From an uncultured Clostridia bacterium (GTDB taxonomy: Bacteria > Bacillota > Clostridia > Christensenellales > DTU072): DNA of 64,000 bases. The notes under the pieces are model-generated. The model did not search any database. It was given only the letters and a program-made list of their open reading frames with translations, and was not told the origin of the DNA. Where the stretch lies: assembly GCA_944349655.1 (NCBI GenBank), contig CALVNL010000003.1, positions 15,252-79,251 of the forward strand. Direction: 5' to 3'. The translations under genes and the position numbers were made by a program. Positions within the stretch are counted from its first letter, which is position 1. Each line of letters begins with the position of its first letter. Below, one piece after another: positions 7,416-23,086 of the stretch.

Positions 7416-7447
7416 TTCAATTCATTCTTTTTATAATTTATATATTT

Positions 7448-8116: not shown

Positions 8117-8127
8117 TATACCACCTT

Positions 8128-9306: not shown

Positions 9307-9317
9307 AAACAAACTCC

Positions 9318-9875
9318 TCAAATATCGTTTTTCATAATATAGTTGCATAAAGAGTCCGTAAAAGTGACAGATGAAAAAAATTTTTTTAACTTTTTTATAA
9401 TTCTTTTATGTCTTTGCCTGACCGCATCATAACGTAAATTCAAAATCGCCGCAATTTCTTTTAACTTGTATCCTTCCCAATAATACAAGTCAACAATTTC
9501 CTGTTCGGTTTTATCTAATTGCTTAATTGCATAGTATAAATCACCATAGAGTTCTTCCTTTGTCAGCACATCAACTTCCGCTATGATTTGATTTAAATCT
9601 GAATAAGCGTATCTTGAATCGTATTTAACTTTTCTTTTTGCTAAACTGTCACAGTTCAAATAAACCCAAGTTGTGGGATTAGCAACATACCCGAATTTTT
9701 CTTTTTCCAATAAGCTGTTGAAAAAATCCTGCGCTATATCTTCGGCAAATGTTCTACCGTATTTTTTTCCGATATGATAAATTATTTTTCCATAGTAAAA
9801 ATTATAGAGTTTCTCTAAAGCACGTTCACTTGTCCGTAATGTTTTTAATAATAAGTTAAATTCTATTTCGTTCAA
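9318..9875 (-). CDS. Sigma-70 family (ECF-like) RNA polymerase sigma factor
   Basis: 185 aa. C-terminal region-4 HTH: LYYWEGYKLKEIAAILNLRYDAVRQRHKRIIKKLKK. N-terminal region-2-like segment. Confidence 0.75.
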   Translation of the reverse strand: MNEIEFNLLLKTLRTSERALEKLYNFYYGKIIYHIGKKYGRTFAEDIAQDFFNSLLEKEKFGYVANPTTWVYLNCDSLAKRKVKYDSRYAYSDLNQIIAEVDVLTKEELYGDLYYAIKQLDKTEQEIVDLYYWEGYKLKEIAAILNLRYDAVRQRHKRIIKKLKKFFSSVTFTDSLCNYIMKNDI

Positions 9876-10057
9876 GTGAATTTCTCCTTCATTTGTTTTC
9901 GAAAATTATATCAAAAAATATAAATAATGTAAATACTTCAAAAATGCTTTCGCAGTTAAGACCGGTACTGAAAAAACACTGCAAAAACGAAACTTTAACT
10001 ATCTTATAAAGAATACAAAATCTACAAACAATAATTATATATTTTTAAAATCTATAT

Positions 10058-10097
10058 AAAAAAACTCAACCTAACCTTTTTTCTGGTTCCGTTGAGT
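10058..10097 (-). terminator. Hairpin plus T-run, read as the orphaned terminator of tRNA-Ser(GGA), displaced by island insertion
   Basis: ACTCAAC (10064-10070) pairs with GTTGAGT (10091-10097). An inner AACC/GGTT helix is also present. The A-run 10058-10063 is a T-run on the minus strand. No minus-strand gene ends upstream of it in the present arrangement. Confidence 0.55.
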
Positions 10098-10101
10098 CCG
10101 T

Positions 10102-10109
10102 CTTGGCGG
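10102..10109. repeat. Left copy of the 8-bp direct repeat CTTGGCGG (putative att core)
   Basis: Identical octamer at 22909-22916. The extended match CTTGGCGGnGAnAn is 11 of 14. Confidence 0.55.
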
Positions 10110-10179
10110 CGAAACCGAATGTCAGTTTGAACTATTCTGCGCTTCTCGATTATTAGTGGTTTCAAAAACCATTGCGTAG

Positions 10180-11718
10180 TTATACCTTGATGCCAGGTGT
10201 TTCTAGGATGGTCGCTTTTTCCGCAGATAGTTTTTTAATCGTGTTAATTCCAGTTTTGATAGCTGTAATTATACTCTTGTATTTGCTTGATTTATCTATT
10301 ATTCTGTGCGTTTCAAATAGCAACAAAATCTCTTTTAAGATAAAAACCAAGCAATGATCTGTTGCCATAATAATATTCACTATGTCACCCCAGGAGCCAC
10401 TATTTGCATACCATAAGTAACCATTTGCATGAGATATCATTTGACTCTCAACATAATCTAAAAGCATTACTCGATCCCAAGAGGTAGAAGATTTTGGATT
10501 CTTGACAGAAAACTTTGATACAAAATCTTTTACTATTCGGGTAAGGCTTTCCGTGGAACCTTTATCGTCAATGGAATACCCTGTTGTTGTACGGAAGTTT
10601 TTCTCAAATATGCTTTGTTCGATTCCATTAGGGTATAATGATTTATAATAGTTGTACGCTTTATCTAACGGGTATTCTTCACCTATGTTTCGTTTGATCT
10701 GCATGCGTTCATGTTCTTCAAGTAGCTTAAAACGCTCCTCTCGGGGGAAGGCACTCAAATAGCATTTTTGGAACGATGCTAGCATATCTAATATGATTTT
10801 CCATTTAGATTTTACTTGTTCGGGCAATCCAAGGAGTTTATCGGAGCAGATCTCTGAGAGTATAAGAGAGAGACTTGTTAATGTATCTGACGTATAATTC
10901 TTTCCAAAAGTCTTTTGAAATTCATTACTTATTTGATTTAGCGAATTACACTCTTGGACAACTAAATCATTGTATTTTCGTGATAAAACCGCGGTATATA
11001 TTGCGGTATAATACACCTCGAAAGTCAACCGTGTTAGAGGAAGAGTTGAGTACTCTTGTGTGATGAGGAGCAGGATGTCAGGAATAGTGGACCAAATTCC
11101 TTCGTTTGAATAGAAATCATTTACAGACGGATGAATTGCTTGGCTATACAGTCCGTAAAGTTTTGCATAATCCTCACCCAAGGTTTCTGCCACCGTTTTA
11201 CGATGGACAACATGGTCTTGGCATAGGAAGGGTAAGTTGCTTTTTACTATGTCATTTATTTCTTTAGCGGTATGACTACTGGATAGTTTTTCGCGGAAAA
11301 AAGTAACTGCGTCATCTTTGTCTTTCAAAAGTTTTTCGGGAATAAGAATTATGTCGGCAATATCTTGAAAATTTTTATAATAATTGTATTCAATCAGGTG
11401 AACTTGCTTTCTTAATAGTTCTATTTGTAGGTCTGAAATCTGCCCTTTTTGATATAGACGTTTTAACGCTAATCCTTCGAGAAAACAGCGTGCAGTAAGC
11501 AACATACCCGGACTACCAATATGTTGCAACAAAACGTCTTTTACGAAGGTTAATGCTTGGGAGGTCAAATAAAAATCTATAATATCGGTAAAAGATTCTG
11601 TCCCAAACAGTTCTTCATCTTCGGAACGCTTCATAAGGGCGTGATTATAAGTGAATAGTCTCCCCCAAAAAGTGTTTAATTCCTCAACAATTATTTGTGT
11701 GACATATTTCATCTGCAT
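10180..11718 (-). CDS. 512-aa predicted all-alpha protein of unknown function, partner of the SIR2 gene
   Basis: Starts 10 nt downstream of the SIR2 stop on the same strand. I find no P-loop or other catalytic motif. Two similar segments occur: YGLYSQAIHPS and YVESQMISHANG. One R-x6-H string is present (REKLSSSH). Confidence 0.7.
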   Translation of the reverse strand: MQMKYVTQIIVEELNTFWGRLFTYNHALMKRSEDEELFGTESFTDIIDFYLTSQALTFVKDVLLQHIGSPGMLLTARCFLEGLALKRLYQKGQISDLQIELLRKQVHLIEYNYYKNFQDIADIILIPEKLLKDKDDAVTFFREKLSSSHTAKEINDIVKSNLPFLCQDHVVHRKTVAETLGEDYAKLYGLYSQAIHPSVNDFYSNEGIWSTIPDILLLITQEYSTLPLTRLTFEVYYTAIYTAVLSRKYNDLVVQECNSLNQISNEFQKTFGKNYTSDTLTSLSLILSEICSDKLLGLPEQVKSKWKIILDMLASFQKCYLSAFPREERFKLLEEHERMQIKRNIGEEYPLDKAYNYYKSLYPNGIEQSIFEKNFRTTTGYSIDDKGSTESLTRIVKDFVSKFSVKNPKSSTSWDRVMLLDYVESQMISHANGYLWYANSGSWGDIVNIIMATDHCLVFILKEILLLFETHRIIDKSSKYKSIITAIKTGINTIKKLSAEKATILETPGIKV

Positions 11719-11728
11719 TGTTTGTAAG

Positions 11729-13075
11729 CTAAATTGCTAAATAATCAAGGAATTGTTTTAGATCAATTACAGTCGGGAACCAAATACACTCTACTCCAAT
11801 TCTCATAAAATGTCTATGAACAATGAATTGATCTTTTGTCGAGAGACCATCTGTCAACATTAGCGCAATATGAGTTTTTCCTTTAATTTGAGTTGTTTCC
11901 AGTATTCTTCGCAAATTAGGATCTGTTAAACTACAGCCAACGAATAGATACGTATTATCCCTATAAAGATAGTTTTGGAGAACTACCGACCAATGATAAG
12001 GATTATTATAAAGCTTATGATACTCAGATTCACTAAAAACAATATAATCTTTATACTGGCAATAATCTTTTGGTAAAATATTAAATGGTAAGTAACCATG
12101 TGTGTGATAGATACTTAATTCATTGTTGGAAAGCATACTTTCATTGAACATAATATTATGTTTCACGCCACAGGCGTCTAATTCTTGCTCTAAAAAATTA
12201 TCATAATTATATGTAATAATATTAAACTTTTTCTCGTTGTGCAATTTAACAACCAGTTTGGCAACATATTTCAAAGTGGAGTCAGGATAATTACTTATTG
12301 GCGGAGTATACTTATCATATAATCCTTTGTATAAACTTTTAATAAAGTCTTTTAAATTTTCTTGAGTAAATTGTCCATTTATAATACTCGTTCCACCTAT
12401 TTTCTTTTGTACTGATATTGAATTGTCAATTACTCCAGCCGATTCTATTTCTTTAAAAAAATCAGAGATAAGGACATCCCATCCTTTAGAACCATAATCA
12501 AGTGATACTCCAGCACCTAGAGATAAAGAAATCATTTTTTTTTGAACTAATTCTTGTAAAAGCAATTTATTATTTTTAATTTTAATATCAAAGTTTAAAA
12601 CTTCATTTAATGAGGCATTCTTTTCTATTTTATCGATTTTTTCGTTATAAAAGCTGTAGTAATCAATAGAATATTCCTTTGCCCATGTTGCTATTGTATT
12701 TTGATCCCAAACGACTATGTTTTCTTCGGCAAATCTATTATTGCTTGAACGACTGCCTTCTTTTAAATATCCATTTACTATGAACAAGCTGATATATTTT
12801 TTCGAATCCAACAGTGGATAGAATTTCATATTCCTGGCATTGTATTTTACTTCAATAATTACAGGCATTTTAAAATCGTCAAATCCTTCCGGTGCGAATC
12901 CATCAAATATACGTATGCCATGTGCAATAGCATTACGAATTTCATTTTTTTGATTAACATACTTAAATATATTTGTGTCTTTGAATTCACTAAAAAACGG
13001 CTTCCCTTGAACGGCACATTTTTGCCTAATTACGGATAAAACAAATTTTTCGAAATCTAATTCTTTATTAATCAT
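11729..13075 (-). CDS. SIR2-family (SIR2_2-type) protein with an N-terminal Mrr-like PD-(D/E)xK domain; putative NAD+-consuming defence effector
   Basis: SIR2_2-like blocks: SLSLGAGVSLDYGSKGW, ITYNYDNFLEQ, IYHTHGYLPF, YLFVGCSLTDPNLRRILE. N-terminal FEKFV..IFDGFAPEG..VIIEVKY resembles the Mrr/PD-(D/E)xK pattern. Confidence 0.75.
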   Translation of the reverse strand: MINKELDFEKFVLSVIRQKCAVQGKPFFSEFKDTNIFKYVNQKNEIRNAIAHGIRIFDGFAPEGFDDFKMPVIIEVKYNARNMKFYPLLDSKKYISLFIVNGYLKEGSRSSNNRFAEENIVVWDQNTIATWAKEYSIDYYSFYNEKIDKIEKNASLNEVLNFDIKIKNNKLLLQELVQKKMISLSLGAGVSLDYGSKGWDVLISDFFKEIESAGVIDNSISVQKKIGGTSIINGQFTQENLKDFIKSLYKGLYDKYTPPISNYPDSTLKYVAKLVVKLHNEKKFNIITYNYDNFLEQELDACGVKHNIMFNESMLSNNELSIYHTHGYLPFNILPKDYCQYKDYIVFSESEYHKLYNNPYHWSVVLQNYLYRDNTYLFVGCSLTDPNLRRILETTQIKGKTHIALMLTDGLSTKDQFIVHRHFMRIGVECIWFPTVIDLKQFLDYLAI

Positions 13076-13111
13076 ATTTTTTCATAAATCCTTGTCAGCA
13101 GTTTTAAAACT

Positions 13112-13140
13112 ATTATAACACTAATTCTGTTTTATTTCAA
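13112..13140 (-). promoter_or_regulatory. Sigma-70-type promoter for the SIR2 operon
   Basis: Minus-strand reading: TTGAAA (13140-13135), 17-nt spacer, TG-extended TATAAT (13117-13112). The ATG lies at 13075. Confidence 0.55.
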
Positions 13141-13189
13141 GATTGTACGTCATTTTTCAAAAAATAATCTCCAAATTTTAGAGAATACC

Positions 13190-13218
13190 TTGAAAATCAA
13201 TAGGAGATATGGTACAAT
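13190..13218 (+). promoter_or_regulatory. Sigma-70-type promoter for the HTH/RM/PHP-ATPase operon
   Basis: TTGAAA (13190-13195), 17-nt spacer, TACAAT (13213-13218). Divergent from the SIR2 promoter. Confidence 0.5.
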
Positions 13219-13256
13219 GAATTAAAATCTTATACCCTTGATGATTGGAGATAATT

Positions 13257-13466
13257 ATGGCAGTTAGTTATAAGAAACTTTGGAAGTTGCTTATCGACAA
13301 AGATATGAAAAAAGAGGATCTGCGCAAGGCAACCGGTATTACTACAACGGCAATGGCTAAACTCGGCAGGAACGAGAACGTTAATACCGAAATACTCGTA
13401 AAGATTTGTGCGGCACTTCAATGTGAACTAAATGACATTGTTGAAATTGTTGGCACAGAACAATGA
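13257..13466 (+). CDS. Small XRE/Cro-type helix-turn-helix regulator (possible RM controller protein)
   Basis: ATG at 13257 with GGAG 6 nt upstream (the track used an upstream TTG). Sequence: MAVSYKKLWKLLIDKDMKKEDLRKATGITTTAMAKLGRNENVNTEILVKICAALQCELNDIVEIV. Confidence 0.75.
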   Translation: MAVSYKKLWKLLIDKDMKKEDLRKATGITTTAMAKLGRNENVNTEILVKICAALQCELNDIVEIVGTEQ

Positions 13467-13536
13467 ATATTGTAAAGAATGAGATTGGTTTAATAATATT
13501 GAAAACCAAAGCGAATAAAGTATTAGGAGAAAAAAG

Positions 13537-15417
13537 ATGAATAGACACGATATTATAGATAGCATTGGAGCTAAATATCATGTTGGGAACACCGAGAATG
13601 GTGAATTTAGTTATGTTCAGGCATTAAAGTCTGTAGGTAAAGACATAAAAGATTATCAAAAAGCGGCGACTGGAACGAAGCACCAGTTTTTGGATATCCG
13701 ATTTACCAATGATCGCTTGGTAATCTTGGTTGAATGCAAGAGCAAATTCAGCCGTTGGGATAAGGCAAAGATACAAGGACAACTCCAAGACTATGTAAGA
13801 TTTGAAAAAGCTTACTCCGATAAAAAAATTGTTGCTATTTTGGCAGAAACCGAAGGCAACGATGTTTGGGTTTGGTATGGTCAATCGGTTATTATTGACG
13901 ACGAGCATAAAGTGTCAACAGAAACCGTTATTCGCACGTTTGGAGAGTATGAAAACTTGTGTTTTGGCAAGGTAAACGATAAGATAAAAATCGTCGATTC
14001 TATCAAGCAATTAAACGAAAAATTACATTCGGATGGTATTAATGAGAAATTGCGTAGTCAATTTGTCGGGACGTGTCTTCTTGCCTTAAAAAACGGCTTG
14101 GTTTACAAAGATGTAAAAGCGACATTGGATCCTAAAACAGGAAAAGAACTTTCTCCTGAAAAAGTTGTCTTAAGAAACATTAAAGATATTCTCGAAGGTC
14201 TGCTAACAAAGAGTGGGACGGTCAATATAAACAAAGCGAGTAAATTGACGATACTTAATAATAAAGTTCTCGGCGACCAAGACGTTGAAAGTCTTACTTA
14301 TGAAGAATTAAAAGAGATTTTAGAATATATCGATACAAATGTCGTTCCATATATTAACGATAAAAGTACTGCAGGGCAAGATTTATTAAACCTCTTCTTT
14401 ACAACGTTCAACAAATATGTTGGTAAATCTGATAAAAATCAGGCTTTTACTCCTGACCATATTTGCGACTTTATGAGCAAAGCCGTTGGCGTAAACAAGA
14501 ATTCTCGTGTTTTAGATCCTTGTTGCGGGAGTGGAGCTTTCTTGGTTAGAGCAATGACCGATGCAATGGATGATTGTGATACAGAAGACGAAAGAGAAGA
14601 TGTAAAGAAAGGGCAGATTTTTGGCATTGAATATGAAGACGGCGCCTTTGGACTGTCCTCTACAAATATGTTGATTCACGGTGATGGAAACTCAAACGTC
14701 ATACAAGCATCTATGTTCGATAAGGCAAAGTGGATTTCGGATAATAACATTAATGTTGTTTTGATGAATCCGCCTTACAATGCGACTAAAAAATGTTGTA
14801 ATCCCGAATATACAAAGAATTGGAGTGCAAACCAAAAAGAAGATCCGTCAAAGGGTTTGCATTTTGTTGAATTTGTTGCAAAACATGTTTCGAAACCTTG
14901 TAAGATTGCAGTCCTTCTCCCTATGCAAGCTGCTATCGGGAATAGTGGAGAAACAGCAGATTTTAAAAAGAAAATGTTAGACAATTATACGCTAGAAGCT
15001 GTTTTCTCGTTGCCTAATGATATGTTCTATCCTGGTGCTTCGGCAATTGCATGCTGCATGATATTCGATTTATCACAGAAGCATGAAAAAGCGAACAGAG
15101 AAACGTTTTTTGGATATTATAAAGATGATAAATTTATAAAGCGCAAGGGGCTTGGGCGTGTTGAAAAAACAGATGCAGATGGGAACAGCCTGTGGGTAAA
15201 AACGGAAGACCTGTGGTTGAATTTGTATCGAAATAAAAAGGAAGTGCCGGGACTGTCCGTTATGCACAAGGTGTCTTGGAAAGACGAATGGCTCGCTGAA
15301 GCTTATATGGAAACGGATTATTCCACCCTAAGCCAGCAAGATTTCCAAAATACCATCAATGAGTATTTGTCGTATTTAGTTAAAGAAGGTGGAATCTATG
15401 AATCTAAAATTAAGTAG
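13537..15417 (+). CDS. BcgI A-like Type IIB restriction-modification subunit (N-terminal PD-ExK endonuclease fused to a gamma-class N6-adenine methyltransferase)
   Basis: D53-x12-E66-x-K68 (FLDIRFTNDRLVILVECK, nt 13693-13740). SAM motif VLDPCCGSGAFLV precedes the catalytic VVLMNPPYN. 626 aa; AGGAGA RBS. Confidence 0.75.
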   Translation: MNRHDIIDSIGAKYHVGNTENGEFSYVQALKSVGKDIKDYQKAATGTKHQFLDIRFTNDRLVILVECKSKFSRWDKAKIQGQLQDYVRFEKAYSDKKIVAILAETEGNDVWVWYGQSVIIDDEHKVSTETVIRTFGEYENLCFGKVNDKIKIVDSIKQLNEKLHSDGINEKLRSQFVGTCLLALKNGLVYKDVKATLDPKTGKELSPEKVVLRNIKDILEGLLTKSGTVNINKASKLTILNNKVLGDQDVESLTYEELKEILEYIDTNVVPYINDKSTAGQDLLNLFFTTFNKYVGKSDKNQAFTPDHICDFMSKAVGVNKNSRVLDPCCGSGAFLVRAMTDAMDDCDTEDEREDVKKGQIFGIEYEDGAFGLSSTNMLIHGDGNSNVIQASMFDKAKWISDNNINVVLMNPPYNATKKCCNPEYTKNWSANQKEDPSKGLHFVEFVAKHVSKPCKIAVLLPMQAAIGNSGETADFKKKMLDNYTLEAVFSLPNDMFYPGASAIACCMIFDLSQKHEKANRETFFGYYKDDKFIKRKGLGRVEKTDADGNSLWVKTEDLWLNLYRNKKEVPGLSVMHKVSWKDEWLAEAYMETDYSTLSQQDFQNTINEYLSYLVKEGGIYESKIK

Positions 15418-16555
15418 TTGGCAATATTTTGATTACATAAGAATTTTTGATATCAAGAAAGGGTTTTATAACAAAAAGCCTGATCCATCTGGTTCTGGAA
15501 AAATTAATTTTATAGGCGCGACTGATCATAATAATGGCGTTACAGAAAGGTATACCCTAGATGAGATAGAAAACGCTTCTAGAACAGGTGATTTGCCAAA
15601 CGAATCATTAAGCAGAAAAGTTTTTCCGGCTCATGCGGTATGCGTAACAAACAATGGCTCCGTAGGTTACGCCTATTATCAAGAAGAATCTTTTACATGT
15701 AGTCACGATGTAAATCCATTATACTTGAAAGACGGGGAGTTTAATAAGTATACAGGCCTTTTTGTCGCAACTGTAATCATGCATGATAAATATCGTTGGG
15801 GATATGGTAGAAAATGGAGGCCTGAAAGAATGGTCAAATCTAAGATAAAACTCCCGATAGTGCAAGATGAAGATGGAAACCCTTTAATAGACGGGAGTAA
15901 AAAGTATTCAGATGATGGCTATTTGCCGGATTGGGCATTTATGGAAAAATACATGATGAACTTGTCTGTTAATCCTGTTTCTACTAATAATAAATCACCT
16001 GTATGCTCTTTTAATACAAAAGATTGGAAAGAGTTTCAGTTCGGCAAACTTATAGAAAATAATAATATCTATAAAGCAAAAGCTTATAGCAAAATAGAAC
16101 TAGAAACGAAAAATATTGCTGAAAAAGGGTATATTCATTTTGTTTCTCGCACGGAAGAGAATAATAGTATCGACTGTTATGTGATGAAAAGCGATTTTTC
16201 TGATATTGAAGAAGGGAATGCGATTACTATTGGAGATACCACATCCACTATAGCATATCAAAGCGAACTCTTTGTAAACGGAGATCACATCATTGTCATT
16301 CGTGCAGACTGGCTAAACAAGTATACTGGTATGTTTATTGTAAGTTTATTAAGAAAAGAGCGTTATCGTTATTCATATGGTAGAGCATTTTTAATGGATT
16401 CTATCAAGAATACAAAATTACATCTTCCTGTAAAAAAGCAGGATGGCAAACCTATTATTGATGATAGCCATACTTTTTCCGATGAAGGCTACTTGCCGGA
16501 TTGGGAATGGATGGAGACTTATATAAAGTCTTTGCCATACAGTGATAGAATTTAA
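15398..16555 (+). CDS. BcgI B / HsdS-like bipartite DNA-specificity subunit
   Basis: Start moved to the ATG at 15398 (AAGGTGG RBS), overlapping the upstream stop. There are two tandem halves, each ending in a conserved block: KIKLPIVQDEDGNPLIDGSKKYSDDGYLPDWAFMEKYM and KLHLPVKKQDGKPIIDDSHTFSDEGYLPDWEWMETYI. Confidence 0.65.
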   Translation: MNLKLSSWQYFDYIRIFDIKKGFYNKKPDPSGSGKINFIGATDHNNGVTERYTLDEIENASRTGDLPNESLSRKVFPAHAVCVTNNGSVGYAYYQEESFTCSHDVNPLYLKDGEFNKYTGLFVATVIMHDKYRWGYGRKWRPERMVKSKIKLPIVQDEDGNPLIDGSKKYSDDGYLPDWAFMEKYMMNLSVNPVSTNNKSPVCSFNTKDWKEFQFGKLIENNNIYKAKAYSKIELETKNIAEKGYIHFVSRTEENNSIDCYVMKSDFSDIEEGNAITIGDTTSTIAYQSELFVNGDHIIVIRADWLNKYTGMFIVSLLRKERYRYSYGRAFLMDSIKNTKLHLPVKKQDGKPIIDDSHTFSDEGYLPDWEWMETYIKSLPYSDRI

Positions 16556-16600
16556 CGTTCGTTCAATGATTCTTAAAATACACAAGCAAAGGAGTTGCTG

Positions 16601-19417
16601 ATGGAATATACTAGAGGATCAGAGTGGAGAAGATGGGATTTCCATCTACATACCCCTGACACAAAAAAGAATGATCAGTTCCAAGCGAATGGCAAAGGAA
16701 AATGGGAACTGTTTTATGAAAATATAGCTAATTACATTGGAGATAAAACCAATCCTCAAAAAACAATTGCAGCAGTCGGAATTACCGATTATTTTTCAGT
16801 TGAAAATTATAGAAAAGTAAAATCAGATGGAATATTGGCACGACATATTGACTTTATTTTTCCCAATATAGAACTTAGGTGTCTCCCCCTAAAAGACGGA
16901 GTAAAAATGAATGTTCATTTACTGATTAATCCATCTTTTATCGATAAAGTAGACACTATAATTCTTAGCAATTTAAAGTATTGCTCAATGGATACGGAGT
17001 ATTGTGCTCGTAAAGATGATTTAATAAGATTTGGAAAAGATCTGGATGCATCTTTGGATGATGAAATGGCCTATAAAAAAGGTGTTGAAAATTTTAATAT
17101 CAATTTTGACGATTTAATAAAAATATTAAAAAATCATCCAGAATGTAAAGATAATGTACTTATCTTAATGCCCAATAGGAGTACTGATGGTGCATCTGCA
17201 GTTGGAAATCCTACAAGCCCGTCAGTGGATCTATGTGATTTATGCGAATATAGAAGAGAATTATATAGAACATCGGATATTATTTTATCTGCGAATCCTT
17301 CGGACATAAATTTCTTTTTAGGTAAACGAGATAAGAAACCTGAAAAGATAATGCCTTGCGTTTGGGGGTGTGATGCTCATACAAACGAAGCTATCTTTGA
17401 ACCGCTTAATAGCGAAAAACAACCGACTAAAAGGTATTGCTGGATTAAAGCAGACCCGACATGGGAAGGATTAAAGCAGGTACTATTTGAACCAGAAGAG
17501 CGGGTTCGCATTCAAGAACTATGCCCAGCGGATAGAATTGACAATTATCGAATTATTGATCAAATTGTTATCGAGGATGATACGGTGCCCCATAGATTTT
17601 CGAATGATGCTATTCCCATCAATGAAAATCTTACTTGCATTATAGGTTTAAAGTCAACAGGTAAATCTATATTGCTGCAGAACATTGCACAGGCAATTGA
17701 TCCTACGGAAGTAACGACAAGATTTAATACAGTTTATGCAGGCAAGAGAATTCCTTTTGAGTTTCCCATAAAAGTATATTGGAAAGATGGTACCGTCTCA
17801 TCAAAAGATTCTAAAGATGATAAGAAAATAGTTTATATAGCACAGTCATATCTTAACAAGTTGATGGATGATTGTGCAGAGAAAACAGAAATTGATTCAA
17901 TAATTGAAGGTATAATCACTCAGAACGAAGATTTCTGCATTTTAAAAAAGAGTTTTGATGCAGAATTGATAGATATTCAAAAACAAATAGAATCTAAGAT
18001 TTTAGATTTAATATACAAACAAAGAGAGTTAATTGGACAAGTAGCTGTTATTAAAGATATTGGTAATCGAGAATCGATTGAAAAGAACATCGAACTGTTG
18101 CGCGAAAAAAAAGAATCAATAGCAAAATCTTTAAATCTATCAGCAGAAGATATTGCTAAATACGATAATGCAATTAATAAAAAGCAAGAACTGGAAGAAA
18201 ATTTGATTGTTTTACAGACAGACAGGAATACTATCGAAAACTCACAGTTTAGTGTTTATGTATGTGGTGAAACAAAAATAGTTGATGCTGAAATAACCAA
18301 TATGTACAATAATGCTCTTTCGTTAATAGAAAGTGAAGCATCGAAAAGATGGAATGAGAAAAAGCAAAGTATTGTTAAGAAAATAGACGAAAAATTATCC
18401 ACAATTAATAATGAATTAAAATCTACGATTGATGTCATTGAAGCCTTAAAACCAATGATGGATAGTAATGAAGAGATTAAGAGAATTGAAAATAATTTGA
18501 GGGCAGAAGAAACAAATTTACGAAAGATAAATGCGGAATTTGAAACACTAACTAATATTCAAAAGTCCATAAACTCTATTATAGAGAATATTCTATCTCT
18601 TTCGACATCACGTGAAAACAAATATGATTTATTCGCAGAGCAATTCAAAACGATTCATTTCAAAGATACGAATGAAAACTTTAAAATCATTGCAATAAAA
18701 AGAAGGCGTAGAGTTTACTTCAGAGACACAATAACAAAGATCTTTACACAAAATGCTTTAAAAACAATTCATAATGGTGTTTTTAGAAATTTTGACGATC
18801 CCTCTTTTATTTTAGAAAATGAGTATGACGAGGCTTGTAAAAAAGATTATATAAATGCGATTCTTGAAAACGACACACAAAAAGTTTTGCTAAGTAAATA
18901 TGAAAAAGATCGTGCATTGCAAGAACTATTTGGCGATTTTGATAATATTATTTATACGGTTGAAATGGATGGTGATCTTATCGAGAGTATGTCTCCCGGT
19001 AAAAAGGCATTAGTTCTGTTGAAACTACTTATAAGTCACGATGAGTCAAAATGTCCAATTCTGTTAGATCAGCCCGAAGACGATTTAGATAACCTCTCCA
19101 TAGTATCCGATTTAGTTGCCTTTATAAAAGAACGAAAAAGGGATCGACAAATAGTTTTGGTGACACATAACGCAAATTTGGTCCTAGGCTGTGATGCTGA
19201 AGAAGTAATTGTGGCAAATCAGCAAATAGACAATAATTCACTTACACATAATAAATCATTTAGATTCGAGTATCGCTCTGGATCTATAGAAAATATAACC
19301 ACAACGGATTCAGATACTTTCCTAGGATCAAGAGGCATTCAACAACATATTTGTAATATTCTAGAAGGCGGAAAAGAAGCATTTATTGCAAGGAAAAATA
19401 AATATACCAATTTGTAA
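16601..19417 (+). CDS. Fused PHP-domain phosphoesterase / Rad50-SMC-like coiled-coil ABC ATPase (Ppl/TrlF-like defence protein)
   Basis: Start at the ATG at 16601 (AAGGAG 6 nt upstream). PHP motifs: FHLHTP (H15, H17), GITDYF, NIELR, NVHLLI, GCDAH. Walker A: GLKSTGKS (aa 349-356). A ~300-aa heptad-rich insert follows. Signature-like MSPGKKAL, Walker B ILLDQPEDDLD, H-loop VTHNANL. Confidence 0.75.
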   Translation: MEYTRGSEWRRWDFHLHTPDTKKNDQFQANGKGKWELFYENIANYIGDKTNPQKTIAAVGITDYFSVENYRKVKSDGILARHIDFIFPNIELRCLPLKDGVKMNVHLLINPSFIDKVDTIILSNLKYCSMDTEYCARKDDLIRFGKDLDASLDDEMAYKKGVENFNINFDDLIKILKNHPECKDNVLILMPNRSTDGASAVGNPTSPSVDLCDLCEYRRELYRTSDIILSANPSDINFFLGKRDKKPEKIMPCVWGCDAHTNEAIFEPLNSEKQPTKRYCWIKADPTWEGLKQVLFEPEERVRIQELCPADRIDNYRIIDQIVIEDDTVPHRFSNDAIPINENLTCIIGLKSTGKSILLQNIAQAIDPTEVTTRFNTVYAGKRIPFEFPIKVYWKDGTVSSKDSKDDKKIVYIAQSYLNKLMDDCAEKTEIDSIIEGIITQNEDFCILKKSFDAELIDIQKQIESKILDLIYKQRELIGQVAVIKDIGNRESIEKNIELLREKKESIAKSLNLSAEDIAKYDNAINKKQELEENLIVLQTDRNTIENSQFSVYVCGETKIVDAEITNMYNNALSLIESEASKRWNEKKQSIVKKIDEKLSTINNELKSTIDVIEALKPMMDSNEEIKRIENNLRAEETNLRKINAEFETLTNIQKSINSIIENILSLSTSRENKYDLFAEQFKTIHFKDTNENFKIIAIKRRRRVYFRDTITKIFTQNALKTIHNGVFRNFDDPSFILENEYDEACKKDYINAILENDTQKVLLSKYEKDRALQELFGDFDNIIYTVEMDGDLIESMSPGKKALVLLKLLISHDESKCPILLDQPEDDLDNLSIVSDLVAFIKERKRDRQIVLVTHNANLVLGCDAEEVIVANQQIDNNSLTHNKSFRFEYRSGSIENITTTDSDTFLGSRGIQQHICNILEGGKEAFIARKNKYTNL

Positions 19418-19792
19418 CATGACAACCACGCAAGTACTAAAATCGGGTTTCCAGATTGTTCGGCGCAACGGCGTGGAGGCTTCAAAGTAGCGACTTCTTA
19501 CTATTTCCATAACTCGCTTAGACCGTCGGAAATAGCCAATAAAACGGAGCAAAATAACAAATCGAAAAATTCATTATAAATATGGCTGAAATTGCTGGGT
19601 ACATTAAGGTATAATGAAGATTTTAAAGGTTAGCGCATCACTAAAACAAAAAGAAAATGACCGCCGAAACATCGAGCAAATACCTGTATTATTGTCCTTT
19701 AATAAAACAAGAAGTGCAGCTACACTCTCAAAAAGTTTTAATCATAAAGCGAGTTTTTACACTATATTTATAATAAATCAAGTAATAAATCA

Positions 19793-19818
19793 AGCCGAGA
19801 ATTTTTCTCGGCTTTTTC
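19793..19818 (+). terminator. Rho-independent terminator inside the island's non-coding stretch
   Basis: AGCCGAGA (19793-19800), loop ATTTT, TCTCGGCT (19806-19813), then a T-run. Confidence 0.6.
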
Positions 19819-19889
19819 CATTGTTATTTGCAAGAAAGTTTAATTATCTTTATTTTTTTCTTAATAACCTTGTAAAATCCATTGTCAAA

Positions 19890-20380
19890 TGTCCTATATA
19901 AGTGAGGGGCATTTTTCTTTTGCGAAAAATACGAAGTTTTTGCCCTCTACTGTCCATATGTAGTGAGAAAATCTTTTTCAAAATAAAAAAAGTTTCGTGC
20001 AAACCATTTACTTTCGTGCCGGAAGTTTCCAATTATAGTAGAGGGATATTTTTCAGGAAAGTACGAAGTTTTTACTCTCTGTTGTCCATATATAGTGAGG
20101 AGATTTTCTTCTGTAAGAAAAAAGTTTCCCGTAAACCATTAACTTTTGTACCGGAAGTGTCCAATTATAGTAGAGAAATAATAAATTACCGCGAATTTCT
20201 AAAAACACCCCGCCAAAAGGTATGGTAAGTGTCCAATTATAGTAGGAGAATTTTTTGAAAAAGTTCAGTTAAATACCCTAACAAAGAGATGAAAACTTTC
20301 CAATATAAGTAGAGATGTTTTCAAGAACTTACGAAAAACACCCCCGCAAACAGGCAAGCTAATGTCCATATATAGTGAAC
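19890..20380 (+). repeat. Array of eight ~18-bp direct iteron-like repeats (consensus TGTCCAWWTATAGTRRAG) containing a 132-bp tandem duplication
   Basis: Copies start at 19890, 19951, 20026, 20083, 20158, 20230, 20297 and 20363, all in the same orientation. Two subtypes occur: TGTCCATATATAGTGAG and TGTCCAATTATAGTAGAG. Segments 19931-20044 and 20063-20176 align without gaps, 93 of 114 identical. Confidence 0.85.
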
Positions 20381-20640
20381 GGTAAAGGAGATAACGGATC
20401 ATGAGTTACAAACAAGTGTACCCGCCTTAGCAGGCAGAAAACGGAAAGCAAAAGCCCGAAAAATAAATTGGAAAACGGGTACTTTTTACAAGCAGGATAA
20501 GGTTTTTGCAATCTATTTCAAAAACGGAACTCGAAACAAGTCGGAAACCGACTTTTCGAAAAGGACAACATTTGCTCGTATCCACAAGAAGAAATCGCCC
20601 TGCTTTTACTAAAAATATCGGCGGACTAACGCAAAAGCAC

Positions 20641-20696
20641 TTGACTTACGCACACAAAGCGTGTAAAATATAATCGTCGTATAGATACGATTATAT
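20641..20696 (+). promoter_or_regulatory. Promoter with an overlapping palindromic operator upstream of the small island gene and recombinase
   Basis: TTGACT (20641-20646), 17-nt spacer, TAAAAT (20664-20669). Perfect 10-bp inverted repeat ATATAATCGT (20668-20677) / ACGATTATAT (20687-20696). Confidence 0.55.
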
Positions 20697-20716
20697 ATTC
20701 ACGGAGGAATGAAAAA

Positions 20717-21007
20717 ATGGCAAAGTCAAGAAAGGAAAAAGACAAAAGATACGAAGAACGGCACAAGGAAGAACGCAAAGCCAAAAACGTTATATGGGGA
20801 ACGAGCGTTCCGAGAAAGACGGCGGAAGAAATAAACGAGTTTCTGAAAAAGCACGGCTATACGAAGGTGGAACTTATACAAGCTGGCTACGAAGAACTGT
20901 TAGCCCGACACGATACCGCCTTTGCAAAATTAAAGGACGGCTACGACGATTTTTTCGAGAGCGAACTTACGAAATTCGCAGAAGAAAGAAACAAAAACAA
21001 ATCATAA
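20717..21007 (+). CDS. Small charged protein (96 aa), unknown function; possible DNA-binding accessory factor of the island
   Basis: GGAGG RBS 9 nt upstream. N-terminal K/R/E-rich segment MAKSRKEKDKRYEERHKEERKAKN. The function is inferred only. Confidence 0.55.
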   Translation: MAKSRKEKDKRYEERHKEERKAKNVIWGTSVPRKTAEEINEFLKKHGYTKVELIQAGYEELLARHDTAFAKLKDGYDDFFESELTKFAEERNKNKS

Positions 21008-21130
21008 TCCGTAAGACGAGATACTCTCGCCTTGCGGAAATCTGAGATAAGGAGGATTTTGCGGTAATGGTGAGAGAACATTACAGCCATCAGGAAAGAG
21101 AACATAGTATCCGCGCAATAAGTATGAACG

Positions 21131-21328
21131 TTGAAGCGGATACAAGAAAACACCGTTGAGGTCAATCTGTCAACGGGACACAAAGAAAAAGGCAGATTAA
21201 ATCTGCCGAAAGAAAGAATACAAACAAGCGCAAAAATTTTAGCCGATATTTTACTCGACTATGCGAGAAACGGCGGTAATATGGACGTTTTAACGCCCGA
21301 GAGCGTATTCGGCAGGAGAAAGCAATGA
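21131..21328 (+). CDS. Hypothetical small ORF overlapping the recombinase start (ATGA)
   Basis: TTG start, no clear RBS. Support comes only from the 4-nt overlap with the recombinase ATG. Confidence 0.25.
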   Translation: MKRIQENTVEVNLSTGHKEKGRLNLPKERIQTSAKILADILLDYARNGGNMDVLTPESVFGRRKQ

Positions 21329-22932
21329 AAAAGCGAGTAGTTATATATGCAAGGTTCAGTTCGCACAGTCAGACGGAACAGTCTATCGAAGGACAACTTC
21401 GGGAATGCTACGAGTATGCAAAAAGACAGGACCTTCTCGTTGTAGCCGAATACATTGACCGTGCGCTTACGGGTACTACGGACAAACGCCCCGAATTTTT
21501 AAGAATGATCGACGACAGTAAGAAAAAGACTTTCGACTATGTTCTTGTTTACCAACTTGATCGCTTTGCCCGTAACCGTTACGACAGCGCGAATTACAAA
21601 GCAAAGTTAAAGAAAAACGGCGTGCGTGTTCTATCTGCAAAGGAAAACATAACGGAAGACGCAAGCGGAATTTTAATCGAGGGCGTGCTGGAAAGTATGG
21701 CGGAGTATTACTCCGCCGAACTTTCGCAAAAGGTAAAACGCGGAATACGGGAAAGTTACGAAAAAGGTTACTTTATCGGCGGATACGGATTATTCGGCTA
21801 TGACATCGTGGACAAAAAATGGACGATAAACAGTTACGAAGCGGATATTGTAAGAGATATTTTTACAAGATACAAAAACGGCGAAAAGGCGAAAGAAATT
21901 ATTGCAAGGCTGAACGGACAAGGCATTAAGACGAAAGCCGGTTCGTCGTTCAATATGAACAGTCTTGCAAGGATAATCCGCAACGAAAAATACATCGGGA
22001 AAGTAACTTCACACGGCACGGTTTACACTAATGTCATACCGCCTATCGTGGACGAAGAACTTTTTTATGAATGCAACGTCATTATGGACAAGCATAAACA
22101 TAAACCGCGCGATAGCAAGAGCGAACAGCCATATATTTTAAGCGGAAAATTGTTTTGCGGATTTTGCGGTAGTCTGATGACCGCCGAAACGGGAACAAGC
22201 CATACAGGTAAACTTCATCACTATTACAAGTGTTTCGGAAGAAAACGCAACAAACACAGTTGTAAAAAGGCAAATTACAGACAGCAAGACCTTGAAGATC
22301 TGGTCTTCGGCACGACGGTTAAATACGTTCTGCAACCCGACGTAATTCAAACCGTTGCCGAACAGGTCGTTTCAAAATTCAATTCGGAGATAACAAAGAC
22401 CGCAACGCTTGAAAATCTCGAAAACGAGTTGAAAGCCAAAGAAAAAGCGATATACGCACTGCTTGCCGCCATAGAACAAGGCATAGTGACTAAATCCACC
22501 AAAGAACGACTGATTTCTCTCGAAACGCAAAAAGAGGAATTAGAGAGCAAAATTTTACTTGAAAAGGCTCGGCAGATAAAACCGCTCGAAGTGGACAAAG
22601 TAAAAGCGTTTTTAACCTATTTTGCCCGTAAAAAGTATGAAAACGGGCAAGAAAAAAACGAGTTTTTCAACTCGTTCATAAACCGTGTTATTTTGTATGA
22701 CGACAAAATTTTAATCTTTTACAACACAGACGATAATCACCCGACGGTAATCAAGAGAAAAAATACGGAAGAATTGGTTTCGCAACTTAACGACATAGAG
22801 AGCAACGGCAAAACCGCAATAAATGACTGCCTGAACGCAACGGGAAACAACAGCCCAAGCGTACAAAATGAAAACTCGCTTGAACCTCAAGGGTTCAAAC
22901 GAGTTTCACTTGGCGGAGAGAGTGGGATTTGA
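21325..22932 (+). CDS. Large serine recombinase (resolvase/invertase N-domain, recombinase domain, zinc ribbon, coiled coil)
   Basis: VVIYARFSSHSQTEQSIEGQ and LDRFARN (serine-recombinase catalytic domain). Cys cluster CGFCGSLM..YYKCFGRKRNKHSC. 535 aa. The 3' end overlaps the tRNA by 22 nt. Confidence 0.9.
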   Translation: MKKRVVIYARFSSHSQTEQSIEGQLRECYEYAKRQDLLVVAEYIDRALTGTTDKRPEFLRMIDDSKKKTFDYVLVYQLDRFARNRYDSANYKAKLKKNGVRVLSAKENITEDASGILIEGVLESMAEYYSAELSQKVKRGIRESYEKGYFIGGYGLFGYDIVDKKWTINSYEADIVRDIFTRYKNGEKAKEIIARLNGQGIKTKAGSSFNMNSLARIIRNEKYIGKVTSHGTVYTNVIPPIVDEELFYECNVIMDKHKHKPRDSKSEQPYILSGKLFCGFCGSLMTAETGTSHTGKLHHYYKCFGRKRNKHSCKKANYRQQDLEDLVFGTTVKYVLQPDVIQTVAEQVVSKFNSEITKTATLENLENELKAKEKAIYALLAAIEQGIVTKSTKERLISLETQKEELESKILLEKARQIKPLEVDKVKAFLTYFARKKYENGQEKNEFFNSFINRVILYDDKILIFYNTDDNHPTVIKRKNTEELVSQLNDIESNGKTAINDCLNATGNNSPSVQNENSLEPQGFKRVSLGGESGI

Positions 22933-22936
22933 ACCC
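22891..22936. repeat. Perfect 9-bp inverted repeat GGGTTCAAA / TTTGAACCC spanning 46 bp, centred on the tRNA CCA end (att-site-like)
   Basis: Arms at 22891-22899 and 22928-22936; the right arm is the tRNA T-arm. A further TTGAACC copy lies at 22880-22886. Confidence 0.6.
22909..22916. repeat. Right copy of the 8-bp direct repeat CTTGGCGG (putative att core)
   Basis: Identical to 10102-10109. Covers the tRNA 3'-terminal CCGCCA plus 2 nt. Confidence 0.55.
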
Positions 22937-23001
22937 ACGGTACGCTTTTGGCGTACACACGATTTCCAATCGTGCTCCTTCGACCCCTCGGACATCTCTC
23001 C
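22911..23001 (-). tRNA. tRNA-Ser (anticodon GGA), class II with long variable arm, CCA encoded
   Basis: Hand fold of the minus-strand sequence. Acceptor GGAGAGA/TCTCTCC; D stem TCC/GGA; anticodon stem CACGA/TCGTG with loop TTGGAAA. Variable arm GTACGC/GCGTAC; T stem GTGGG/CCCAC with loop TTCAAAT; discriminator G then CCA. 91 nt. Confidence 0.9.
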
Positions 23002-23086
23002 TTGTGCGGGACGGTTATGGTCCTTTGCCCGTCCCCTTGTTGTTGATATCGTTGACTATTATATAATACTTTTTTCGGTTTGGCAA

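What the first reader, a model, noticed from the sequence alone, without database searches (positions are those of the whole stretch)
10058..23001. 12.8-kb AT-rich defence island at the CCA end of tRNA-Ser(GGA), splitting the tRNA from its terminator
An identical octamer, CTTGGCGG, occurs at 10102-10109 and 22909-22916 (11 of 14 identical when extended). The right copy covers the last six nt (CCGCCA) of an intact tRNA-Ser(GGA). The left copy lies 4 nt from a hairpin plus T-run on the same (minus) strand that terminates no gene in the present arrangement. Deleting 10110-22916 in silico gives tRNA-CCA, AG, ACGG, then a 7-bp-stem terminator, which is the layout expected of an uninterrupted tRNA locus. 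The interval holds a large serine recombinase at its edge and only defence-type cargo. It is visibly AT-rich (15/60 G+C at 12001-12060 versus 35/60 at 28321-28380, hand counts). Caveat: an 8-bp match between two ~100-bp regions is not very improbable alone; the argument rests on the combination.
Basis: partly seen in the sequence, partly recalled or inferred. Interest (0 to 1): 0.7.

Follow-up and report, generated by a model that had tools for sequence, protein, structure and literature searches.

The report
Serine-recombinase defence island at tRNA-Ser CCA end
A 12.8-kb mobile island carrying candidate anti-phage genes sits exactly at the CCA end of a tRNA-Ser gene in a gut Christensenellales bacterium, placed there by a large serine recombinase, a kind of integrase that the papers I could search either say does not target tRNA genes or mention at a tRNA only once, in passing.

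Summary
tRNA-Ser(GGA) (22911-23001, minus strand), the octamer CTTGGCGG at both ends, the hairpin plus T-run at 10058-10097 and the low G+C are all present. A closely related strain (99% identical flank) has the empty site: tRNA-CCA joined directly to that terminator. A related element shows the matching attP-type junction. Together these place the crossover within TGGCGG, the last six nucleotides of the tRNA. The island spans about 10104-22910. It has a conserved 3-kb backbone (repeat region, orf96, orf65, recombinase gene) and variable cargo: a SIR2-domain protein with an unknown partner, and a methyltransferase, specificity subunit and TrlF-type ATPase.

Three corrections. The tRNA is not left without a terminator, because the island supplies a 16-bp hairpin plus T-run 3 nt after the CCA, inside the recombinase gene's 3' end. 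The displaced terminator now lies 82 nt downstream of the island's last gene. There is no compositional step at the left boundary.

The wider result is that the whole recombinase clade sits this way. It abuts tRNA-Ser or tRNA-Met genes; more distant relatives abut other tRNA genes and tmRNA genes. Four further complete islands show the same layout. I rate it a new variant of a known kind, interest about 0.6.

The parts
10058..10097 (-). The original tRNA-Ser terminator, now displaced (B' side of attB). It is a hairpin pairing 10064-10070 with 10091-10097, followed by seven T. It now lies 82 nt downstream of island ORF 10180-11718.
   Evidence: Sequence; fold (dG -15.5, z -3.5). In the empty-site contig L004 it follows the tRNA CCA directly.
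10102..10109 (.). Left copy of the core CTTGGCGG. TGGCGG at 10104-10109 is the part shared across the family.
10110..10135 (+). Left end of the island (P' arm), with TTTGAACT at 10126-10133, 16 nt after TGGCGG.
   Evidence: The same motif at the same spacing occurs in L010, L027, L031 and L033, in L089, and as TCGAACT in L088.
10180..11718 (-). Cargo: a 512-aa protein of unknown family, in an operon with the SIR2 gene.
   Evidence: No hit in Pfam, PADLOC, NCBIfam, PHROGs or PDB sequences.
11729..13075 (-). Cargo: a 448-aa SIR2-domain protein, a candidate NAD-depleting defence effector.
   Evidence: PF13289 SIR2_2, E 3e-17. Partial PADLOC ThsA/SIR2 hits over the SIR2 domain only.
13245..13466 (+). 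Small XRE-type HTH regulator.
   Evidence: phrog_3 transcriptional repressor, E 3.5e-6. PF13443 HTH_26 is recorded for the same gene in L001 and L006. 76% identical in L008.
13537..15417 (+). Cargo: N6-adenine DNA methyltransferase.
   Evidence: PF02384, E 6e-33. PADLOC type IIG / type I methyltransferase models.
15389..16555 (+). Cargo: restriction-modification specificity subunit.
   Evidence: PF01420 Methylase_S, E 6e-19, two stretches.
16595..19417 (+). Cargo: a 940-aa TrlF-family AAA-like ATPase. It sits where a type I system would have the restriction subunit (the type I layout is from general knowledge).
   Evidence: NF045780, E 4e-154, 516 bits against a cut-off of 350. The C-terminus resembles the anti-phage protein Ppl.
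19918..20314 (.). Conserved non-coding repeat region of the backbone: a 132-bp unit 1.9 times, and a 21-nt motif AAGTkTCCAATTATAGTAGAG four times.
   Evidence: Conserved in L008 and L089-L091.
20717..21007 (+). orf96, a conserved backbone gene of unknown function.
   Evidence: Present upstream of the recombinase gene in 15 relatives at 51-99% identity. No family hit.
21131..21328 (+). orf65, which overlaps the recombinase start codon. It is a candidate accessory or directionality factor (inference).
   Evidence: Found directly upstream of the recombinase gene in about 25 relatives at 35-98% identity. No family hit.
21325..22932 (+). Large serine recombinase, 535 aa. The ORF runs through the core and ends 22 nt inside the tRNA gene. 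In the excised circle it would be 553 aa.
   Evidence: Pfam domains; phrog_95 integrase, E 2e-124; invariant R10 and S12; predicted circular-form ORF.
22871..22907 (-). Replacement terminator for the tRNA carried by the island (P arm): a 16-pair hairpin followed by TTTTCATTTT. It encodes the recombinase C-terminal peptide NSLEPQGFKRVS. TTTGAAC lies 11 nt from the core.
   Evidence: dG -28.2, z -6.1. A hairpin is conserved with different stem sequences in the 37 element ends folded, followed by T-rich sequence in most. G at +15 in 35 of 36 unique ends.
22909..22916 (.). Right copy of the core. The crossover lies within TGGCGG, 22911-22916, which is CCGCCA of the tRNA.
   Evidence: Chromosomal homology in L002, L003, L004 and L092 ends at 22910/22911. 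Element homology in L088 ends at 22916.
22911..23001 (-). Intact tRNA-Ser(GGA) (B arm). The T-arm motif TTTGAAC at 22928-22934 lies 11 nt from TGGCGG.
23058..23086 (-). Promoter-like site for the tRNA (TTGCCA, 17 nt, TATAAT).
   Evidence: 11 of 12 matches. This is a consensus match only.

Best explanation
This is an integrated mobile island of about 12.8 kb (about 10104-22910). Its own large serine recombinase inserted it by site-specific recombination between an attP that lies in the 3' end of the recombinase gene and an attB formed by the 3' end of tRNA-Ser(GGA) plus the start of its terminator. The crossover falls within CCGCCA, so the tRNA is rebuilt exactly. On the tRNA side the island supplies a new hairpin and T-run terminator 3 nt after the CCA. 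That sequence also encodes the recombinase C-terminal peptide and carries a TTTGAAC motif mirroring the one in the tRNA T-arm. The tRNA's original terminator is moved 12.8 kb away, to behind the island's last operon. The conserved 3-kb backbone (repeat region, orf96, orf65, recombinase gene) moves variable cargo. Here the cargo is two candidate anti-phage modules: a SIR2-domain protein with an unknown partner, and a methyltransferase, specificity subunit and TrlF-type ATPase.

Shown here: the boundaries, the empty site, the attP-type junction and the generality across the recombinase clade. Inferred: the exact crossover dinucleotide, that TTTGAAC is a recombinase-binding motif, that the island can still excise, that the hairpins terminate transcription, and that the cargo defends against phage.
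For: Empty site: L004 joins the tRNA CCA to the terminator at window 10099..10029. Three further contigs of the species lose homology to the window at 22910.

attP-type junction: L088 encodes a 96% identical recombinase; its DNA is 96.4% identical to window 21161-22916 and then runs into different cargo immediately after CTTGGCGG.

Other complete islands: four were found (3.2, 7.8, 10.1 and 10.3 kb). All are bounded by TGGCGG, with direct repeats of 6-14 nt. In each, the far junction is followed by a hairpin and T-run, and the P' arms are homologous.

Clade-wide position: in 22 loci with a recombinase at least 60% identical and enough downstream DNA, 21 ORFs overlap by 17-18 nt the CCA end of a convergent tRNA-Ser (anticodons CGA, GGA, TGA, GCT) or tRNA-Met, and in one (L027) the protein match stops short while the element end still abuts the CCA. 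More distant relatives lie up to about 360 nt from tRNA-Asn, Glu, Ala, Val, Leu, Met, Gln or tmRNA genes. At least 72 of 120 cluster representatives have tRNA-like C-terminal tails.

Several targets for near-identical enzymes: recombinases 96-98% identical sit at different tRNAs, GGA in the window and CGA in L008, with distinct tails in P0001-P0003.

Element-borne hairpin: all 37 element ends fold into a hairpin with differing stem sequences, followed by T-rich sequence in most. The T-T-y-G-A-A-C motif sits at +12 to +18.

Backbone and cargo: the backbone genes are conserved while the cargo varies and is rich in restriction-modification genes.

No tyrosine recombinase domain and no phage structural gene was found among the island ORFs searched.
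Against: Only one true empty-site contig was found. It covers just 70 bp beyond the tRNA and differs by a 4-nt indel from the predicted repaired site. No attP junction of this exact element was found; L088 has different cargo, showed no terminal overlap and could be a tandem array. There is no compositional break at the left boundary. The half-site geometry is odd for a serine integrase: P, B and B' carry the GAAC motif 11 nt from TGGCGG and only P' carries it 16 nt away, so no single centre makes both attP and attB symmetric. The centre of the symmetric tRNA-side junction is the palindromic dinucleotide GC. No relaxase, replication gene or packaging gene was found in the island, so the route of cell-to-cell transfer is unknown. 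Neither cargo module matches a complete validated defence system.
Confidence: 0.85

Rival explanations
1. The island is real, but it is a fixed relic that can no longer move. The recombinase persists only as a remnant, and the presence/absence polymorphism reflects an old insertion or a deletion.
For: No circular junction of this exact element was recovered (0 hits in viral contigs). All six contigs carrying the identical sigma-factor gene also carry the island.
Against: The recombinase ORF is intact, with invariant catalytic residues. Island-bearing and empty strains are 99% identical in the flank. Recombinases 96-98% identical occur at other tRNA genes and in an attP-type junction with different cargo. 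That points to recent activity in the lineage.
Confidence: 0.1
2. The mobile unit is larger. The low-G+C stretch from about 6.5 kb (sigma-factor cassette and Flg_new paralogues) through 22.9 kb is one composite island, or a tandem of islands, at this tRNA. The 'native terminator' at 10058-10097 would then be the relic end of an older element.
For: G+C is 0.346 in 6501-10099, the same as the island. Strains of the L002, L003 and L092 type have entirely different DNA after the tRNA, including tRNA fragments. The B' sequence resembles the element-end consensus, with C8, T9, C10 and GAAC at +15 to +18.
Against: L004 shows the terminator directly after the tRNA with the recombinase island absent, so 10104-22910 is a separable unit. 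No recombinase remnant was seen in 6.5-10.1 kb. Homologues of the sigma cassette occur in other genomic contexts without a tRNA.
Confidence: 0.2
3. Integration happened by a classical tyrosine-integrase route, or by homologous recombination through a duplicated tRNA 3' segment, and the serine recombinase is only a passenger.
For: tRNA 3' ends are the classic targets of tyrosine integrases (PMC4383910). L002 and L003 carry a 19-22-nt direct copy of the tRNA 3' end downstream.
Against: No tyrosine recombinase domain was found among the island ORFs searched. The flanking repeat is only 8 nt here and 6 nt in L033. The recombinase ORF overlaps the junction with a fixed 17-18-nt register in 21 loci, which no passenger gene would do.
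Confidence: 0.03

Closest known systems
Roseburia phage Shimadzu integrase (large serine recombinase; Cornuault et al., bioRxiv 10.1101/575076)
   Same: The recombinase is 44% identical. The paper reports that the integration site lies inside the integrase gene, so the prophage and free forms differ in the last ~22 residues, and that a second prophage copy was 'inserted in a tRNA'. Here the predicted forms are 535 and 553 aa. The phage sequence near the end of the integrase gene contains TGGTGG, the complement of CCACCA (my reading).
   Different: Shimadzu is a 45-kb tailed phage; this is a 12.8-kb island with no virion genes. The paper does not describe the CCA-end geometry, a replacement terminator, or tRNA targeting as a property of the clade.
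[quoted passage not shown]
   Same: Integration at the 3' end of a tRNA or tmRNA gene with the gene rebuilt. The tRNA locus acts as a hot spot for variable DNA, including defence cargo.
   Different: The enzyme family is unrelated. There is no displaced tRNA fragment of tens of nucleotides; the repeat is 6-14 nt. The crossover is in the final CCGCCA and not in the anticodon or T loop. [quoted passage not shown]
SCC elements (CcrA/B/C serine recombinases at the 3' end of rlmH/orfX)
   Same: A serine recombinase inserts a cassette of variable cargo at the extreme 3' end of a conserved housekeeping gene without inactivating it. That description of SCC elements is from general knowledge. Ccr models are the best NCBIfam hits.
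   Different: The Ccr scores are far below the family cut-offs (144 against 900 bits). The target is a tRNA and not a protein-coding gene. There is a single recombinase gene, and attP lies inside its 3' end.
Serine-recombinase IMEs and ICEs of Firmicutes (Tn4451/TnpX; streptococcal elements in rumA; PMC5704250, PMC4701971)
   Same: Small integrative elements with one large serine recombinase and very short flanking repeats. In the rumA elements attR lies within the integrase gene. Three relatives here carry Mob_Pre relaxases.
   Different: Those elements insert inside protein-coding genes and disrupt them. This one uses a tRNA end and preserves it. No relaxase was detected in this island.

Membership tests
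Large serine recombinase (serine integrase) | N-terminal resolvase catalytic domain with a conserved Arg and catalytic Ser | tested here: met
   PF00239, E 3e-30, residues 5-148. Y8, A9, R10, F11 and S12 are invariant in 31 sequences.
Large serine recombinase (serine integrase) | Recombinase domain plus zinc-ribbon domain C-terminal to the catalytic domain | tested here: met
   PF07508, E 2e-18 (residues 172-256) and PF13408, E 7e-13 (residues 271-328). phrog_95 integrase, E 2e-124.
Large serine recombinase (serine integrase) | Short att sites sharing only a small core, with each site quasi-symmetric about a central dinucleotide | tested here: inconclusive
   The shared core is 6-14 nt. GAAC-type motifs lie at fixed spacing in P, B and P'. 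P' is 5 nt further out than B, as I recall for attP versus attB half-sites. P, however, has the B-type spacing, so attP and attB cannot both be symmetric about one centre.
Large serine recombinase (serine integrase) | Demonstrated recombination of attP with attB | not testable with these tools
   Only comparative junctions are available.
Tyrosine-integrase tRNA island (Islander type) | A tyrosine recombinase gene on the island | tested here: not met
   No PF00589-type hit among the island ORFs searched.
Tyrosine-integrase tRNA island (Islander type) | A displaced tRNA fragment of tens of nucleotides at the far end | tested here: not met
   Only 8 nt are repeated, 6 of them from the tRNA.
Integrative mobilizable element (IME) | Its own integration and excision module | tested here: met
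   A recombinase gene with att junctions.
Integrative mobilizable element (IME) | A relaxase and/or oriT for mobilisation | tested here: inconclusive
   No relaxase was found in the island. Mob_Pre is present in 3 of 85 cargo proteins of relatives. The repeat region 19918-20314 is uncharacterised.
Prophage or phage satellite | Virion, packaging or satellite hallmark genes | tested here: not met
   PHROGs hits are limited to the integrase and one repressor-like HTH.
Type I restriction-modification system | HsdM, HsdS and HsdR all present | tested here: not met
   M and S are present. No HsdR is present; a TrlF-family ATPase sits in its place.
Thoeris and other SIR2 defence systems | The SIR2 effector together with its defining partner (TIR ThsB, HerA, pAgo and so on) | tested here: not met
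   Only the SIR2 domain matches. The 512-aa neighbour matches nothing.

The most novel reading that the evidence does not exclude
A large clade of serine integrases in gut Christensenellales and other Clostridia uses the near-universal T-arm plus the CCA end of tRNA and tmRNA genes as its chromosomal half-site. One enzyme can therefore use several tRNA genes. Its attP lies inside its own 3' coding end and doubles as a portable intrinsic terminator that replaces the one it displaces. This would add a second, mechanistically unrelated route to tRNA-gene integration and correct the statement that only tyrosine integrases target tRNA genes.
Probability: 0.5. Interest if true: 0.75.

Novelty: new variant of a known kind. 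Interest (0 to 1): 0.6.

Why it matters
tRNA genes are the classic landing sites for genomic islands, and that has been credited to tyrosine integrases. [quoted passage not shown] The review of integrative mobilizable elements says serine-recombinase elements insert inside genes and disrupt them (PMC5704250).

Here a serine recombinase, and apparently its whole clade with thousands of relatives in gut metagenomes, inserts at the last bases of tRNA and tmRNA genes. It does no damage to the gene and brings a replacement terminator.

If confirmed, three things follow. Island-finding tools that require a tyrosine integrase or a long tRNA-fragment repeat will miss these elements. A common vehicle for restriction-modification and other defence genes in an abundant, poorly cultured gut lineage would be identified. 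And these would be compact serine integrases whose natural target is a sequence present in nearly every bacterium, which is of interest for genome engineering.

Tried and rejected
1. I searched the relatives for the window's left-end sequence allowing up to 12 mismatches and found nothing. A spacing-based motif search then found four far junctions (after a mis-specified first attempt).

2. I scanned viral contigs for an attP junction with the window's P arm and got 0 hits.

3. The single metagenome scan, with the tRNA 5' end plus leader, returned one contig, L092. It has the alternative L002-type arrangement and is not a further empty site.

4. I looked for a longer empty-site flank through homologues of the sigma-factor gene. 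In other species the cassette lies in unrelated contexts without a tRNA, so it gave no information.

5. I first took the recombinase tails reading QVVIAFELF... for circular forms. In L089 that tail lies in a chromosomal contig where a second recombinase gene converges on the first and overlaps it by 113 nt. The sequence after the core is still P'-like.

6. Pfam, PADLOC, NCBIfam, PHROGs and PDB sequence searches gave no family for the 512-aa partner, orf96 or orf65.

7. I tried to fix the crossover dinucleotide from half-site symmetry, but no single centre fits both attP and attB. It is left open.

8. The paper Mageeney et al. 2020 (TIGER), which may give figures on tRNA-gene use by serine integrases, is not held in the library.

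Full report
**1. The observation**

ARAGORN and Rfam both find one intact tRNA-Ser(GGA) gene at 22911-23001 on the minus strand. CTTGGCGG occurs at 10102-10109 and 22909-22916. The 11-of-14 extension and both hand G+C counts are correct.

The minus-strand hairpin pairs 10064-10070 with 10091-10097, has an inner 4-bp stem, and is followed by seven T. ORF 21325-22932 (+) is a large serine recombinase with Resolvase, Recombinase and zinc-ribbon domains. Its stop codon lies 22 nt inside the tRNA gene.

**2. The boundaries, tested by comparison**

Looking up the exact product of the neighbouring metallophosphoesterase gene (23087-24298) gave contigs of the same species.

- L001 is 99.97% identical to the window and carries the island.
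- L004 is 99% identical over 1.5 kb. It reads ...CTCTCTCCGCCA|GGACTCAACTGAACCCGTAAAAAGGTTAAGTTGAGTCTTTTTAT... That is the tRNA CCA joined directly to the hairpin terminator found in the window at 10099..10029. This is the empty site. It has 4 nt fewer (AGAC) than the in-silico deletion and is 88.7% identical over the terminator. It is therefore a diverged allele and not a chimera formed through the repeat.
- L002, L003 and the human-gut contig L092 lose homology to the window at 22910 and continue with unrelated DNA. This tRNA end is a variable junction with at least three configurations.

The island side was tested with L088. This is a 10.1-kb contig that encodes a 96% identical recombinase. 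Its DNA is 96.4% identical to window 21161-22916 and diverges immediately after CTTGGCGG into different cargo: KilA-N, HTH, ResIII and an N6_N4 methyltransferase. That is an attP-type junction, either a circle or a tandem.

Chromosomal homology ends at 22910/22911 and element homology ends at 22916. The crossover therefore lies within TGGCGG, the last six nucleotides (CCGCCA) of the tRNA. No longer flanking repeat exists.

**3. The same layout across the recombinase clade**

The recombinase has thousands of relatives at 60-98% identity. Nearly all end in ...NSLEPxGFKRVSLGG. They then diverge into tails such as E-x-GIRTP, which is the reverse-strand translation of a tRNA acceptor stem and T-arm. 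At least 72 of the 120 listed representatives have such tails.

Eighty loci were fetched from species-representative genomes, mostly Christensenellales and other Clostridia gut MAGs. The window's organism is evidently one of these; L008, 'uncultured Christensenella sp.', has a 96% identical recombinase.

- There are 22 loci with a recombinase at least 60% identical and enough downstream DNA. In 21 the ORF overlaps by 17-18 nt the CCA end of a convergent tRNA-Ser (anticodons CGA, GGA, TGA, GCT) or tRNA-Met. In one (L027) the protein match stops short but the element end still abuts the CCA.
- Exceptions and edge cases: one locus abuts a 3' half-fragment of tRNA-Met (L018), and one abuts only ...TTCCGCCA (L032).
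- Relatives at 42-56% identity lie up to about 360 nt from tRNA-Ser, Asn, Glu, Ala, Val, Leu, Met or Gln genes or tmRNA genes.
- Recombinases 96-98% identical sit at different tRNA genes. Specificity therefore seems limited to features shared by these tRNA ends.

**4. A replacement terminator and fixed-distance motifs**

Directly after the CCA, the window has a 16-pair hairpin followed by TTTTCATTTT (22907..22871; dG -28.2, z -6.1). So the tRNA is not left unterminated.

All 37 element ends examined fold into a strong hairpin, although the stem sequences differ between subclades. In most of them T-rich sequence follows the stem directly.

Independently of the stem sequence, positions +12 to +18 after the CCA read T-T-y-G-A-A-C. 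G is at +15 in 35 of 36 unique sequences, and GAAC is present in 26 of 36.

Measured from TGGCGG, this motif lies 11 nt away on the element side (P). That mirrors TTTGAAC of the tRNA T-arm, 11 nt away on the other side (B). At the island's left end (P') TTTGAACT lies 16 nt away, 5 nt further out. The same spacing holds in L010, L027, L031, L033 and L089, and in L088 as TCGAACT.

From memory of structural work on serine integrases (Rutherford et al. 2013, not re-read here), a 5-bp outward shift of the distal motif is the known difference between attP and attB half-sites. That fits P' against B. The P arm, however, has the B-type spacing, so attP and attB cannot both be symmetric about one centre. 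I leave the exact crossover dinucleotide open.

The conserved C-terminal peptide, which follows a highly variable linker, is most simply explained by constraint on the DNA (att site and terminator) and not on the protein. This is inference.

**5. Five complete islands**

The spacing motif located the far junctions in four relatives. The islands measure 3,224, 7,827, 10,072 and 10,271 bp, against 12,807 bp between the two TGGCGG starts in the window. The direct repeats are 6-14 nt and always contain TGGCGG. In every case the far junction, read in the tRNA's direction, is CCGCCA followed by a hairpin and T-run (dG -15.5 to -23.5).

In the window that terminator now lies 82 nt behind ORF 10180-11718 on the same strand, with no other predicted terminator between them. 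It probably now ends the island's SIR2 operon.

**6. Anatomy of the island**

The backbone runs from about 19.9 to 22.9 kb, with G+C 0.418. It consists of:

- a repeat region, with a 132-bp unit 1.9 times and a 21-nt motif four times;
- orf96;
- orf65, which overlaps the recombinase start codon;
- the recombinase gene.

orf96 and orf65 are conserved in 15 and about 25 relatives respectively.

The cargo runs from 10.1 to 19.4 kb, with G+C 0.339. It consists of:

- a 512-aa protein with no detectable family;
- a SIR2_2-domain protein;
- an XRE-type HTH regulator;
- an N6-adenine methyltransferase and a specificity subunit;
- a TrlF-family AAA-like ATPase, E 4e-154, whose C-terminus resembles the anti-phage protein Ppl.

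These are plausible defence modules, but neither matches a complete validated system.

In 14 relatives, the genes in the 10 kb upstream of the recombinase gene are dominated by DNA methyltransferases, ResIII helicases, Schlafen-type helicases and RhuM. Three carry Mob_Pre relaxases. Some flanking chromosomal genes are probably included in that sample. No relaxase, replication gene or virion gene was found in the window's island, so its route between cells is unknown.

**7. Composition**

The island is AT-rich (0.354) compared with the right flank (0.463). The 3.6 kb to its left is equally AT-rich (0.346), and the internal step lies at about 20.5 kb. Composition alone would have misplaced the left boundary. 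The 6.5-10.1 kb stretch may be an older or separate variable region.

**8. What is already known**

- The review of integrative mobilizable elements says serine-recombinase elements insert inside genes and disrupt them (PMC5704250).
- The large survey of serine recombinases by Durrant et al. does not contain the word tRNA in its main text (PMC10083194).
- The closest precedent is Roseburia phage Shimadzu, whose recombinase is 44% identical. Its integration site lies within the integrase gene and gives two C-terminal isoforms, and a second copy was 'inserted in a tRNA' (bioRxiv 10.1101/575076).
- In streptococcal elements integrated in rumA, attR also lies within the serine integrase gene (PMC4701971).

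I found no description of CCA-end targeting as a property of a recombinase clade, nor of the replacement terminator. The library is incomplete, and the TIGER paper could not be read.

**9. Verdict**

The finding is confirmed, with corrections. It is a serine-recombinase island integrated within the last six bases of tRNA-Ser(GGA). It is one member of a widespread family of gut-bacterial elements that carry variable, mostly restriction-modification-type cargo.

The kind of object, a site-specific island at a tRNA gene, is well known. The enzyme family, the crossover position and the terminator replacement make it a new variant. Confidence in the main explanation is 0.85. Interest is 0.6.

Noticed in passing
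L002 11390-11715; L003 11390-11590; L092 from about 3129: A third configuration of the same tRNA-Ser locus. After the CCA comes a different terminator (AATACAAAAAACGCACATTTTCGTGCG TTTTTTT). It is followed by a 13-nt inverted copy of the T-arm (GTGGGATTTGAAC), then a 19-22-nt direct copy of the tRNA 3' end (AAATCCCACTCTCTCCGCCA), and in L002 and L003 a TetR-family gene absent from the window. It looks like the scar of a different, tyrosine-integrase-type element.
   Followed up: partly
window 19918-20314: A non-coding repeat region between the cargo and the recombinase module: a 132-bp unit 1.9 times (81% identical), and a 21-nt motif AAGTkTCCAATTATAGTAGAG at 20023, 20155, 20227 and 20294. It is conserved in L008 and L089-L091. 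It could be iterons, an oriT or regulator binding sites. The 108-aa ORF listed there (19902-20228) is probably not a gene.
   Followed up: partly
window 4990-7228 and about 1-4978 (minus strand): Three tandem paralogous genes with a Listeria-Bacteroides repeat domain (about 89% identical to one another). Next to them is a gene for an approximately 1850-aa LRR_5 protein that runs off the window's start. Then comes a low-G+C cassette (sigma-70-like 185 aa, 406 aa, 222 aa) at 7448-9875. Homologues of the sigma cassette sit in unrelated contexts in other species.
   Followed up: partly
L089 10001-13046; L090 4069-7114: Two large serine recombinase genes converge and overlap by 113 nt. One is 77% and the other 35% identical to the window's recombinase. 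The first ORF reads through TGGCGG into a P'-like arm that lies inside the 3' end of the second gene. There is no tRNA. This may be nested or tandem elements, or a two-recombinase element.
   Followed up: partly
L018 about 11525-11600: An element of the tRNA-Met-targeting subclade abuts only the 3' half of a tRNA-Met, from the anticodon loop onward. This suggests the recombinase needs no more than the T-arm and acceptor 3' strand.
   Followed up: no
phage records MT837257, MT838962, MT837820 and others: Many unannotated 4-13-kb 'Bacteriophage sp.' contigs from human faecal samples encode recombinases 38-44% identical to this one. They may be small non-phage elements of this kind.
   Followed up: no
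L031 8216-11458: A minimal 3.2-kb element of this family: the recombinase gene plus one 539-aa ORF on the opposite strand, bounded by TTGGCGG repeats.
   Followed up: no
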